DNA from: Escherichia coli | GTDB taxonomy: Bacteria > Pseudomonadota > Gammaproteobacteria > Enterobacterales > Enterobacteriaceae | Assembly (NCBI RefSeq): GCF_013315695.1 | Contig: NZ_CP054353.1 | DNA length: 64,000 nucleotides | Strand: one strand, 5' to 3' | In this document: piece after piece, positions 18,001 through 21,000 of the stretch | Position numbering within the stretch: the first letter of the stretch is position 1 | Layout of the letters: every line of letters begins with the position of its first letter | Position numbers: made by a program

Positions 18001-21000
18001 CTAGCGGAAGTCAGTTAGTTGCCATGCAAAACTATATGCTGCAACGCGGTCATACTGAACAAGCGGATTTGTTTTATGGTGTGCTGAGAGACAGGGAAAC
18101 GGGAGGGGAGTCTATGATGACGTTGGCGCAGTGGTTTGAAGAGAGGGGAAGACAGGAGGTAAGACAGGAGGTAAGACAGGAGGTAATACAAGAGGTTAGA
18201 CAGGAAGTAAGACAGGAATTCGCCCTGCGTTTTCTGAGTAAAGGGATGTCTCGGGAAGACGTTGCAGAGATGGCAAATTTACCTCTTGCTGAGGTTGATA
18301 AGCTGATTAGCTAAGTTATCTGCATTATCAGTTATAGCCAGATAATTGTTATTGTTAACTGACCAGATAATTAAGGGAACATATGGAAATAAAGACACGG
18401 AGAGAAACCAGGCAGACGTTGGCGCAGTGGTTTGAAGAGAAGGGATTTCAGAAGGGATTTCAGAAGGGATATAAAGAGGGACTCCAGAAGGTAAGACTGG
18501 CCCAGCGTCTTCTGAGTAAAGGAATGTCTCGGGAAGACGTTGCAGAGTTGGCAAATTTACCTCTTGCAGAGATTGATAAGCTAATTAACTCTAACTAAGT
18601 TGTCTACGATATGAATAATTGCTTACAGATGACGTGGCAATGAATAACTGGCGCCATCAGCCGTAGCGCCAGTTAAATATTACGCCAGTTCTACGATTTT
18701 GTTGTCGATCAGGCGAGCATCGCCAAGCCAGGCGGCTACCAGAATCACCGCTCGTTTGCTGTTTTCAGAGATTTCCAGCAAGGTGTCGGCATCGCGAATC
18801 TGAATATCATCGGAACGGAAACCTTTTTCATTCAGTTCTTGCCCGGCAATAGCAATAATTTCATCGAGATCCCGTTCGCCAGCCTGCAATTTGTCGGCAA
18901 TTGAACTTAAGACCTTGTACAGACCCGGCGCAATTTTGCGTTGTTCCGCCGTCAGATAACCGTTACGGGAACTCAGCGCCAGACCGTCTTTGGCGCGCAT
19001 AATCGGTACGCCGACAATCTCAATATCAAAGCCCATATCAGCAACCATTTTGCGGATCAGCGCCAGTTGCTGAAAATCCTTTTCACCGAAGCAGGCGATG
19101 TCCGGCTGGACCAGGTTGAACAGTTTGCTGACGATGGTCGATACGCCGCGAAAATGTCCTGGACGGCTGGCACCTTCCAGCATGGTGGAAAGGCCTGGAA
19201 CATCGACATAGGTGTGGGTTTCTGTACCGTTCGGATAGATCTCTTTTACCGAGGGAGCGAAAACCAGATCTACTTTACGTTTGTTTAGCTTCTCGCAGTC
19301 TTCCTGCAAGGTGCGTGGGTAGCGAGCCAGATCTTCCGGGCGGTCAAACTGCATCGGGTTAACGAAAATACTGACGACGACCACATCGGCGCGGGCTTTG
19401 GCTTCGTCAACCAGCTTCATATGGCCGTCGTGCAGGTTACCCATGGTGGGCACCAGCGCCACGCGCTTACCTTCCATACGCAGGCGGCGGATTTGCTGAC
19501 GCAGCAGCGGCAGGGTTTCGATAATTAACACAACGTCACTCCTTAATGGAAACTGTGTTCTTCGCCCGGATAAACGCCGGACTCCACTTCAGCCATATAC
19601 TGCCGCACAGCCGCGCGGATGTCGCCCGTTTCGGCGAGGAAATTTTTGGCGAATTTAGGAATATGACCGCCGGTAATGCCGAACGCGTCGTGCATCACGA
19701 GGATTTGCCCGTCAGTGACGTTGCCTGCGCCAATACCGATAACCGGGATCGCCAGTGCTTCGGTAATACGTTTTGCCAGTTCAACCGGCACGCATTCCAG
19801 CACCAGCAGCTGTGCCCCCGCGGCTTCTAAGGCTAATGCATCGCTGAGCAGTTGATCGCCCGCTTCATCGCCGCGCCCCTGTACTTTGTAGCCACCGAAA
19901 ATATTCACTGACTGCGGCGTTAAACCTAAGTGACCACATACAGGAACGGCACGTTCGGTCAGCATTTGTACGGTTTCCACCAGCCACTCACCGCCTTCAA
20001 TTTTGACCATGTTGGCTCCGGCACGCATTACCGTTGCGGCGTTTTCAAAGGCTTGTTCCGGCGTGGCATACGCCATAAATGGCAGGTCAGCCAGCAGAAG
20101 GCAGTTTGGCGCGCCGCGACGCACAGCGGCGGTGTGATAGGCGATATCGGCAACGGTAACCGGTAGCGTGGAGTCATGCCCCTGAACCGTCATGCCCAGT
20201 GAGTCGCCTACCAGCATGACGTTAAGTCCTTCTTCGGCAAACAGTTTTGCGAAGCTATAGTCGTAAGCGGTGATGGTTGCGAAACGTTTTTTGTCCTGCT
20301 TGCATTTCTGCAATGAAGCAATCGTGGTTGGTTTCATAGCGTATCCTGATAAATAATGTTGTGCTGTCTCGCATTTTATCAGTCACATTGGTGGGGGCAA
20401 TGATTTATCCGTATCGCACCGCCGTTGTCTGGCGGTGCGATAGTGTTATCAGGGGTAGGTAACCTGAAAAGTGCTGGTGGCTTTAAAATCCCCCGGTTCT
20501 ATAGCAATATTACCGTCTTGTTTTAATGTAGCCTGGAAATGAAGAGGTTGTGAGGTACCGTTTCCTTTATCCGGGTAAATTCCTCCGGTAGTGTCATCTT
20601 CTGTTTCGTAATCTTTATAAACAGACGTTGAATCATTTGGTTTCAGTACCATTTGTGCACTTTTAGTGTTTTTTAAACCTTCAATCAGTACTCCAACGCC
20701 TTTTGCTGCGTTATTTCCTGTGAGTGTGTTAGCCAGAAGTTCTTTGCTTACACTGCCCACCTTGTTTGACATAAGTTTTGTTTCTATATTGCGAACACGA
20801 ATACAGTTCTGTAGCGTGATATCAAAAGGAACCGCTGTTGCGCCATTTTTTATTTGCGCAGGGCTATAATCACCCATTTTAACCGTTGAACCACTTACCG
20901 TTGGACCACTAAGCGCCGCAGTAAAACAGGTAGGGTTTGTTAATATGATATCTGTCAGGTCAAAGTCGATTTTAAGAAAATAGCTGTGTTCATTGATACC

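What the first reader, a model, noticed from the sequence alone, without database searches (positions are those of the whole stretch)
18100..18600. Rpn-family nuclease gene with repeat-driven variable tail, internal RBS+ATG, and an extra free-standing tail cassette downstream
The yadD/rpnC homolog ends in a tail built from about six 12-bp tandem repeats (gacaggaggtaa, (RQEV)n). An in-frame ATG-ATG at 18114 is preceded by gggaggggag, so the last 66 codons could be translated on their own. About 70 bp after the stop, a 71-codon ORF (18383..18598) with its own SD-like aggga encodes a second version of the same tail: the flanking blocks TLAQWFEE and SKGMSREDVAE-ANLPLAE-DKLI are conserved but the core is a different 12-bp repeat (gggatttcagaa, (GFQK)n). 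As I recall the K-12 layout, yadD and panC are separated by only about 70 bp, so roughly 290 bp here is extra. This matches published work on Rpn proteins in which the C-terminal tail is hypervariable and also made as a small intragenic protein that restrains the full-length toxic nuclease (antiphage defence). A separate, diverged, independently translatable tail gene next to the parent gene could be a spare cassette for tail switching by recombination between the conserved flanks, or a trans-acting orphan antitoxin-like protein. I have not seen this arrangement described for rpnC.
Basis: partly seen in the sequence, partly recalled or inferred. Interest (0 to 1): 0.7.

Follow-up and report, generated by a model that had tools for sequence, protein, structure and literature searches.

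The report
Known extra RpnC antitoxin-tail gene (rpnCSs)
The small gene after rpnC is a real, separately encoded copy of the nuclease's variable tail, but this arrangement (rpnCSs) was already described in 2023 and occurs in about 29% of complete E. coli genomes, so it is a correct reading of a known feature and not a discovery.

Summary
- rpnC runs 17394-18314.
- Its tail holds 5.8 copies of a 12-bp repeat.
- An in-frame SD+ATG sits at 18101-18116.
- A 71-codon ORF (18383-18598) encodes a diverged second copy of the tail.
- The rpnC-panC gap is 292 bp longer than in K-12.

The second copy arose by a ~296-bp tandem duplication.

The novelty claim fails. Zhong et al. [quoted passage not shown] They also describe its loss by deletion or fusion.

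The cassette is in 1,552 of 5,426 complete E. coli genomes and in E. marmotae. PGAP annotates it as "RpnC/YadD family protein".

Three points here go beyond that paper:
- The two tails in one strain usually differ in length (29 vs 23 core residues here).
- About half of the downstream variants are out of the four-residue register.
- Exact chimeras, including K-12's own rpnC tail, show crossovers in both conserved flanks.

The function of rpnCSs has not been tested.

The parts
17394..18314 (+). rpnC (yadD ortholog), full-length RpnCL, 306 aa, an Rpn-family PD-(D/E)XK nuclease
   Evidence: ORF list. TIGR01784 scores 275 bits against a cut-off of 52.1. Syntenic with K-12 rpnC between panD and panC.
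18101..18119 (+). Internal translation start (iTIS) for RpnCS: SD-like GGGAGGGGAG, a 3-nt spacer, then ATGATG in frame
   Evidence: Read directly from the sequence. Identical to K-12 DH1 over this stretch. Translation from this site was shown in K-12 by Zhong et al. 2023.
18114..18314 (+). rpnCS, the intragenic small ORF (66 aa) equal to the C-terminal tail of RpnC
   Evidence: In frame with rpnC. Matches TIGR01784 positions 218-273, E = 8e-9.
18149..18217 (+). 12-bp tandem repeat, 5.8 copies, consensus AAGACAGGAGGT, encoding (RQEV)n in the long first helix
   Evidence: Tandem Repeats Finder score 110, 87% matches. Copy number differs between strains: core of 13 to 37 residues.
18315..18382 (+). 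68-bp spacer between rpnC and rpnCSs. Its first ~30 bp are the duplicated 3' flank. SD-like AAGGGA lies at 18373-18378. No strong hairpin.
   Evidence: Self-alignment. Near-identical in six cassette-bearing loci. RNA fold z-score -0.6. No terminator-like site found.
18383..18598 (+). rpnCSs, the separately encoded second copy of the RpnC tail, 71 aa (MEIKTRRET...KLINSN)
   Evidence: ORF. 63% identical to RpnCS, E = 1e-25. Matches TIGR01784 positions 213-273, E = 1e-10. Annotated in RefSeq as 'RpnC/YadD family protein' or hypothetical. Named rpnCSs in PMC10400941.
18438..18470 (+). 12-bp tandem repeat, 2.8 copies, AGAAGGGATTTC, encoding (KGFQ)n
   Evidence: Tandem Repeats Finder, 100% matches. 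Copy number differs between strains: core of 11 to 29 residues.
18646..18674 (.). GC-rich hairpin (AACTGGCGCC...GCGCCAGTT) between rpnCSs and the convergent panC. Probably a shared transcript end. It is the only strong stem-loop downstream of rpnC.
   Evidence: RNA fold -22.4 kcal/mol, z-score -2.1. Conserved in all loci aligned. It has no T-run, so the pattern scan did not call it.

Best explanation
The locus is the rpnC toxin/antitoxin gene-within-a-gene plus rpnCSs, the separately encoded second copy of its small tail protein described by Zhong et al. 2023.

Shown here:
- A ~296-bp tandem duplication of the rpnC tail plus ~30 bp of 3' flank produced a free-standing 71-codon gene with a new N-terminus (MEIKTRRETRQ) and its own SD-like site.
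- The two copies have diverged in their 12-bp repeat cores, RQEV type against KGFQ type.
- The cassette is polymorphic in Escherichia.
- The conserved blocks on either side of the repeat core have served as crossover sites. Crossovers there fuse the nuclease domain to the downstream tail and delete the spacer.

Known from the literature for the family: full-length RpnL is a toxic DNA endonuclease. RpnS, made from the internal start, binds it through the long repeat-bearing helix and blocks it. A difference of one four-residue repeat abolishes this block for RpnC.

Inferred:
- rpnCSs is co-transcribed with rpnC/rpnCS, because there is no hairpin or terminator between them.
- It is translated into a small helical protein of the RpnS type.
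- In this strain its helix core (23 residues, out of the four-residue register) does not match that of RpnCL/RpnCS (29 residues). It is therefore more likely a weak or non-cognate partner, or a reservoir allele, than a redundant cognate antitoxin.
For: Identity of the locus:
- Zhong et al. text on rpnCSs and rpnESs/ypaA.
- RefSeq annotation 'RpnC/YadD family protein' at the same position in other strains.
- The precomputed PF27070 HTH_Rpn_C domain on 92-93% identical relatives.
- TIGR01784 C-terminal match, E = 1e-10.
- 63% identity to the strain's own RpnCS.

Duplication: self-alignment of 18119-18344 with 18415-18631.

Distribution:
- At least 80% of the 365-nt cassette query is covered in 1,552 of 5,426 complete E. 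coli genomes.
- Absent from K-12 DH1.
- Present in E. marmotae and unnamed Escherichia species.

Coding signals:
- The ORF is intact with the same start in all 14 loci from which it was extracted, and length changes are in frame. Six further loci carry an intact MDIK/MDIT-start variant.
- The spacer and the SD/ATG are conserved.

Shape: the AlphaFold2 model has a long helix (residues 6-45, kinked at 21) plus two short helices. This fits the description of RpnAS as a bundle with a long first helix.

Mismatch: the paired core lengths (RpnC tail vs small gene) are 29/23, 33/23, 13/21, 37/23, 33/21, 29/19 and 21/17, with only 21/21 (L012) and 29/29 (L021, L023) equal. Of 73 small-gene clusters, 39 have cores of length 3 mod 4. 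Of 36 RpnC tails, 32 have cores of length 1 mod 4.

Crossovers:
- L008 combines the L006 rpnC core with the L006 small-gene C-terminal end.
- L027 joins the rpnC N-domain to a small-gene-type core, with panC directly downstream.
- The K-12 tail is 100% identical to the L015 rpnC tail up to the shared block and 100% identical to the L015 small-gene 3' end and flank after it.
Against: - No expression or activity data exist for rpnCSs in any strain. Zhong et al. showed synthesis only for the rpnE counterpart, YpaA.
- pN/pS on the non-repeat codons is 0.69 for rpnCSs against 0.27 for rpnCS. That fits relaxed constraint, although there are few sequences and recombination confounds the estimate.
- About 71% of complete genomes lack the cassette.
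- No sigma-70-like promoter was found on the + strand.
- The model confidence is moderate (mean pLDDT 73, and 51-61 over the first 30 residues: N-terminus and repeats). Neither the fold search nor the sequence searches recovered RpnAS.
- The mismatch argument extrapolates from a single +1-repeat experiment on K-12 RpnC.
Confidence: 0.85

Rival explanations
1. rpnCSs is a functionless leftover of a tandem duplication. It stays open only because it is short and because its repeat changes come in 12-bp steps, which keep the frame.
For: pN/pS is 0.69 against 0.27 for rpnCS. The cassette is absent from about 71% of complete genomes. PGAP flags it as a pseudogene or hypothetical protein in some strains. 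No promoter of its own was found.
Against: The ORF is intact with the same start codon in every locus examined, including E. marmotae-type variants. The spacer and SD-like site are conserved. The analogous K-12 gene ypaA/rpnESs is translated. Frameshifted variants in the protein search are rare and come mostly from metagenome contigs.
Confidence: 0.2
2. The selected role of rpnCSs is as a spare tail cassette. A single crossover in either conserved flank replaces the tail of RpnCL, and with it RpnCS, so a new but automatically matched toxin/antitoxin specificity arises in one step at the cost of the cassette.
For: Exact chimeras exist with crossovers in the 5' block (L027) and in the 3' block (L008, and K-12 against L015). 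The same C-terminal alleles (KVINLI, KMIN, MATLSLTEVDKLINSN) occur at both positions. Roughly 80 genomes match the cassette query at 90% identity or better while covering less than 80% of it, a figure derived from the counts. Zhong et al. also report fusions.
Against: Every fusion seen deletes the cassette, so the switch works once and cannot be reversed. Such deletions are expected between any direct repeats and need no selection. No case of gene conversion that keeps both copies was demonstrated; L012 is ambiguous. The direction of the K-12/L015 event is unresolved. Some short metagenome contigs that begin at the repeat (L025, L028, L029) could be assembly chimeras.
Confidence: 0.15
3. RpnCSs acts in trans on something other than its neighbour's nuclease. 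For example, it could pair with RpnCS and so titrate the antitoxin, neutralise another Rpn paralogue or an incoming plasmid Rpn, or act as a decoy for a phage factor.
For: The helix-core length and register differ from those of RpnCL/RpnCS in most strains, and repeat number sets pairing specificity. The C-terminal HTH-like part is well conserved.
Against: This is pure inference with no interaction data. Zhong et al. find that RpnCSs clusters with RpnCS and not with the tails of other paralogues.
Confidence: 0.1

Closest known systems
rpnCSs of Zhong et al., PNAS 2023 (PMC10400941; Fig. 2I, SI Fig. S3C and S6)
   Same: [quoted passage not shown] It derives from RpnC, carries variable four-residue repeats, and can be lost by deletion or fusion.
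   Different: Nothing in kind. This window carries one rare allele pair; only 4 of the matching E. coli records are at least 99% identical over the 1,451-bp query. The paper's main text does not report the unequal core lengths, the 2-residue register shift or the exact K-12/L015 chimera. Its supplement could not be read.
ypaA / rpnESs downstream of rpnE in E. coli K-12
   Same: A free-standing copy of the tail of the upstream rpn gene. It was shown to be synthesised by SPA tagging and ribosome profiling.
   Different: It has an independent origin from RpnE and is present in K-12, whereas rpnCSs is absent from K-12.
RpnS intragenic antitoxins (RpnAS, RpnCS) and stand-alone DUF4351 / HTH_Rpn_C small proteins
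   Same: A small helical protein equal to the Rpn C-terminal tail, with 12-bp/4-residue repeats in the first helix. RpnS binds RpnL and blocks it.
   Different: RpnS shares its DNA with the toxin, so the two must co-evolve. rpnCSs is uncoupled and has diverged: core of 23 against 29 residues here. Its antitoxin activity has never been tested.
EcoR124I / EcoR124II HsdS TAEL repeats (the analogy drawn by Zhong et al.)
   Same: A change in the number of four-residue helical repeats changes the spacing and specificity of a protein.
   Different: It is a different protein family with a different function (DNA target spacing in a type I restriction enzyme). The resemblance is only in how it works.

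Membership tests
Rpn (YhgA-like) recombination-promoting nucleases: RpnC ortholog | Full-length match to the family profile above its curated cut-off | tested here: met
   TIGR01784 scores 275 bits against a cut-off of 52.1, covering residues 8-304. Relatives carry PF04754.
Rpn (YhgA-like) recombination-promoting nucleases: RpnC ortholog | Chromosomal position of K-12 rpnC, between panD and panC | tested here: met
   Window ORFs, the K-12 DH1 annotation and the 100%-identical genome.
Rpn (YhgA-like) recombination-promoting nucleases: RpnC ortholog | PD-(D/E)XK catalytic residues and DNA endonuclease activity | not tested
   The catalytic residues were not mapped here, and activity needs an experiment.
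RpnS intragenic antitoxin (RpnCS) | In-frame internal ribosome-binding site and start codon upstream of the tail | tested here: met
   GGGAGGGGAG-TCT-ATGATG at 18101-18119, identical to K-12. RpnCS synthesis from this site was shown in K-12. Translation in this strain cannot be tested with these tools.
RpnS intragenic antitoxin (RpnCS) | Strain-variable four-residue (12-bp) repeats starting 8-20 residues after the initiating Met | tested here: met
   Repeats at 18149-18217 start about 12 codons after the ATG at 18114. The core ranges from 13 to 37 residues among strains.
RpnS intragenic antitoxin (RpnCS) | Binds RpnL and blocks its toxicity, SOS induction and DNA cleavage | not testable with these tools
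   Needs co-expression or biochemistry.
RpnSs (separately encoded downstream copy; rpnCSs) | Separate ORF directly downstream of rpnC on the same strand, homologous to the strain's own RpnCS | tested here: met
   ORF 18383-18598 lies 68 bp after the rpnC stop. It is 63% identical to RpnCS, E = 1e-25, through a 296-bp tandem duplication.
RpnSs (separately encoded downstream copy; rpnCSs) | Match to the Rpn C-terminal domain profile (PF27070 HTH_Rpn_C, or DUF4351) | tested here: inconclusive
   TIGR01784 positions 213-273 match at E = 1e-10, but the 41.8 bits fall below the whole-protein cut-off. PF27070 is precomputed on 92-93% identical relatives, in places only as a weak hit. The Pfam-A scan of the window protein gave no hit with E <= 0.001 and did not list PF27070 or PF14261.
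RpnSs (separately encoded downstream copy; rpnCSs) | Three-helix fold with a long first helix, as in the RpnAS crystal structure | tested here: inconclusive
   The AlphaFold2 model has helices 6-20/22-45, 50-56 and 61-69 at mean pLDDT 73. Foldseek against the PDB gave only weak HTH matches, best E = 0.31, and RpnAS was not recovered. The sequence and profile searches of the PDB did not find it either.
RpnSs (separately encoded downstream copy; rpnCSs) | The protein is synthesised | not testable with these tools
   Shown only for YpaA/RpnESs in K-12. K-12 lacks rpnCSs.

The most novel reading that the evidence does not exclude
rpnCSs is not a redundant antitoxin but an uncoupled, deliberately mismatched tail allele. 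Its helix core differs in length from its neighbour's and is often out of the four-residue register. On this reading it serves as a reservoir: one crossover in either conserved flank gives the nuclease and its intragenic antitoxin a new, automatically matched specificity. K-12's own rpnC tail would be a product of, or a partner in, such an exchange. Alternatively, rpnCSs tunes free RpnCL by pairing with RpnCS. The 2023 paper reports fusions but not this role.
Probability: 0.15. Interest if true: 0.55.

Novelty: already known. Interest (0 to 1): 0.25.

Why it matters
As a discovery it matters little. The gene-within-a-gene antitoxin, the variable four-residue repeats and the extra downstream copy at rpnC were all published in 2023, and the ORF is annotated in RefSeq.

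The remaining value is twofold. First, it shows that a tool-free reading of raw sequence recovered a real and subtle architecture. Second, the function of the uncoupled copy is still open. The unequal helix lengths and the exact inter-strain chimeras found here give a concrete, testable question: does RpnCSs neutralise its neighbour at all, or is it raw material for changing toxin/antitoxin specificity under phage pressure?

Tried and rejected
- **Pfam-A scan of the 71-aa protein.** No hit with E <= 0.001, only weak HTH/DUF matches.
- **PADLOC.** Only marginal RmrA and PDC-M64B matches to the two small proteins, none for the full-length protein. Not used.
- **PDB searches.** Sequence searches with the small protein, with a 32-sequence profile and with full-length RpnC did not find the RpnAS crystal structure. 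The top hit was a designed 'CAP repeat' HTH protein, taken as generic HTH resemblance.
- **Foldseek of the AlphaFold2 model against the PDB.** Best E = 0.31 (TrpR), so no usable match.
- **Promoter and terminator pattern scan.** No + strand promoter and no terminator. The - strand promoter-like site at 18352-18324 is within the chance expectation (3 found against 2.2 expected), and the antisense 91-aa ORF 18279-18554 was judged spurious.
- **Rfam.** No match in or near the locus.
- **The paper's supplementary files.** Not held, so Fig. S3C and S6 could not be checked.
- **Follow-up literature on rpnCSs/RpnSs.** None found in the held library. One literature search failed on a syntax error.
- **pN/pS.** Computed, but too few sequences and recombination make it only indicative.
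- **Gene conversion that keeps both copies.** Not demonstrated. Every RpnC with a small-gene-type core that I could place in context had lost the cassette. Three of those contigs begin right at the repeat and may be assembly artefacts.
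Full report
**1. The observation**

The window carries an ORF of 306 codons at 17394..18314 (+). It lies between panD (16740..17120, -) and panC (18680..19531, -). The ORF matches the Rpn family profile TIGR01784 at 275 bits against a cut-off of 52.1, and it occupies the position of rpnC/yadD in K-12 DH1. The window is 100% identical over the 1,451-bp query to E. coli MSB1_4I, which annotates the same genes.

- Tandem Repeats Finder reports 5.8 copies of a 12-bp unit at 18149..18217 (87% matches, score 110). It also reports 2.8 perfect copies of a different 12-bp unit at 18438..18470.
- GGGAGGGGAG (18101-18110) precedes an in-frame ATGATG at 18114, leaving 66 codons.
- After a 68-bp spacer that ends in AAGGGA-ACAT, an ATG at 18383 opens a 71-codon ORF ending at 18598.
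- The two small proteins are 63% identical (E = 1e-25). They share the blocks TLAQWFEE and LSKGMSREDVAE.ANLPLAE.DKLI but differ in the repeat core.
- At the DNA level, 18119-18344 aligns with 18415-18631. The second tail is therefore a ~296-bp tandem duplication that includes about 30 bp beyond the stop codon.
- In K-12 DH1 the rpnC stop and panC are 73 bp apart, against 365 bp here.

**2. What it is**

Zhong et al. (PNAS 2023, PMC10400941) showed the following:
[quoted passage not shown] - RpnS binds the toxic full-length nuclease (RpnL) and blocks it.
- The tail varies between strains by four-residue repeats in its long first helix. For RpnC, adding one repeat to only one partner abolishes the block.
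[quoted passage not shown] It calls this copy rpnCSs, by analogy with ypaA/rpnESs downstream of rpnE, and concludes from a phylogeny that RpnCSs originated from RpnC.
It is also annotated: RefSeq genomes label the ORF "RpnC/YadD family protein", "hypothetical protein" or "transposase".

Close relatives carry the precomputed Pfam domain PF27070, HTH_Rpn_C.

The internal start region of the window is base-for-base identical to that of K-12, where RpnCS synthesis was demonstrated.

**3. Distribution**

A 365-nt query covering the spacer, rpnCSs and the 3' flank is covered at 80% or more in 1,552 of 5,426 complete E. coli genomes, about 29%. K-12-type strains match only from the conserved block onward, at about 81% identity and within rpnC itself.

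Small proteins with the same MEIK/MDIK N-terminus occur in E. coli, E. marmotae and unnamed Escherichia species. The cassette is therefore old or mobile within the genus.

The spacer and the SD/ATG region are nearly invariant in six cassette-bearing loci. The small ORF is intact, with the same start, in all 14 loci from which it was extracted, and its length changes are in frame. Six further loci carry an intact MDIK/MDIT-start variant.

**4. Expression signals**

This part is inferred. The spacer has no significant secondary structure (z-score -0.6), and no terminator-like site was found. The only strong hairpin lies after rpnCSs, at about 18646-18674 (-22.4 kcal/mol, z-score -2.1). It is conserved in all loci.

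No sigma-70-like promoter was found on the + strand in front of rpnCSs. Co-transcription with rpnC/rpnCS is therefore the most economical reading, but it is not shown.

**5. Structure**

An AlphaFold2 model built on 32 relatives gives a long helix (residues 6-45, kinked at 21) followed by two short helices. Mean pLDDT is 73: 51-61 over the first 30 residues, which span the N-terminus and the repeats, and 83-89 over residues 31-70. This agrees with the published description of RpnAS.

Neither Foldseek (best E = 0.31, TrpR) nor sequence and profile searches of the PDB recovered RpnAS. Fold-level membership is therefore inconclusive.

**6. What I could add to the published picture**

(a) The two tails in one genome are usually unequal. 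Core lengths between WFEE and LLSKGM, for the RpnC tail and the small gene respectively:

| Locus | RpnC tail | rpnCSs |
|---|---|---|
| This window | 29 | 23 |
| L002 | 33 | 23 |
| L003 | 13 | 21 |
| L006 | 37 | 23 |
| L007 | 33 | 21 |
| L009 | 29 | 19 |
| L015 | 21 | 17 |
| L018 | 25 | 29 |
| L012 | 21 | 21 |
| L021, L023 | 29 | 29 |

Only the last two rows are equal.

(b) About half of the rpnCSs clusters (39 of 73) carry a 6-nt deletion (QEF to L, giving "KVRLAQR"). This puts the core at a length of 3 mod 4, whereas 32 of 36 RpnC tails are 1 mod 4. Given the one-repeat specificity shown for RpnC, RpnCSs in this strain is unlikely to be a cognate partner of RpnCL. That is an inference.

(c) Exact chimeras show that both conserved blocks act as crossover sites:
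- L008 carries the rpnC core of L006 joined to the small-gene C-terminal end of L006, with no cassette left.
- L027 joins more than 230 nt of rpnC to a small-gene-type core, with panC directly downstream.
- The K-12 rpnC tail is 100% identical to the rpnC tail of L015 through the repeat core. It is 100% identical to the small-gene 3' end (KVINLI) and flank of L015 from the shared block onward.

The direction of the K-12/L015 event (deletion, or acquisition by double crossover) cannot be decided from these data.

(d) pN/pS on non-repeat codons is 0.69 for rpnCSs against 0.27 for rpnCS. This is compatible with relaxed or diversifying selection, but it rests on few sequences that recombine.

**7. 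Mechanism and rivals**

Best-supported reading: this is the published rpnC/rpnCS/rpnCSs locus. RpnCL is the toxic nuclease and RpnCS its obligatorily matched intragenic antitoxin. RpnCSs is an uncoupled paralogue of the antitoxin that has drifted, or been driven, away from its neighbour in helix length.

Whether it is a weak antitoxin, a modulator, a reservoir allele or a decaying duplicate is open. I put about 0.2 on a functionless relic, 0.15 on a selected spare-cassette role and 0.1 on a trans-acting role on another partner.

**8. Verdict**

The feature is already known and annotated, and interest is low. What remains is the untested function of the uncoupled copy, together with the mismatch and chimera evidence gathered here.

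Noticed in passing
window 21091-21858 (- strand): An IS1A element splits a fimbrial-like adhesin gene of the yad fimbrial cluster into two pseudogene halves, at about 20449-21078 and 21844-22491. One perfect terminal repeat, GGTGATGCTGCCAACTTACTGAT, lies at 21836-21858.
   Followed up: partly
window ~23785-24344 (- strand): A fimbrial protein gene in the same yad cluster is annotated as frameshifted in the 100%-identical genome. Not examined further.
   Followed up: no
window 52179-52224 (+) and 60347-60433 (+): Rfam matches above the gathering score: the HtrA 5' UTR thermometer (77 bits) and t44 RNA (83.5 bits). Both are ordinary E. coli features.
   Followed up: no
L001 (K-12 DH1) 1502-1751 against L015 1262-1780: K-12's rpnC tail is an exact chimera. 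It is 100% identical to the L015 rpnC tail up to the shared conserved block, and 100% identical to the L015 downstream small gene's 3' end and flank after it. The well-studied K-12 RpnC C-terminus (KVINLI) is therefore an allele that sits in the small-gene position in other strains. The direction of the event is unresolved.
   Followed up: partly
L026 792-1695 (Logan SRR21461730 contig, 84.5 kb): This rpnC has an 11-nt internal deletion that breaks the nuclease frame, while the RpnCS-type small ORF (a fusion with a small-gene-type C-terminal end) stays open. It could be an antitoxin-only remnant or a sequencing error.
   Followed up: partly
L004 (strain 123; listed next to an O157:H7 strain), between the hairpin and panC: An insertion of about 200 bp with an ERIC/IRU-like inverted-repeat core (…CCCCAGTCACTTACTTATGTAAGCTCCTGGGGATT…) lies between the rpnC-side hairpin and panC. 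It is absent from the window and from K-12. The ERIC identification is from memory and was not tested.
   Followed up: no
L025, L028, L029 (metagenome contigs): Several contigs begin about 24 nt upstream of the ATGATG and run straight into a small-gene-type core. The duplicated conserved block probably breaks or mis-joins short-read assemblies here, so fusion alleles seen only in such contigs should be treated with caution.
   Followed up: partly
window 18279-18554 (-) and 18352-18324 (-): A 91-codon ORF runs antisense to rpnCSs, and there is one promoter-like site on the - strand. The promoter count in the region (3) is within the shuffle expectation (2.2 +/- 1.5), so both are probably chance.
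   Followed up: no
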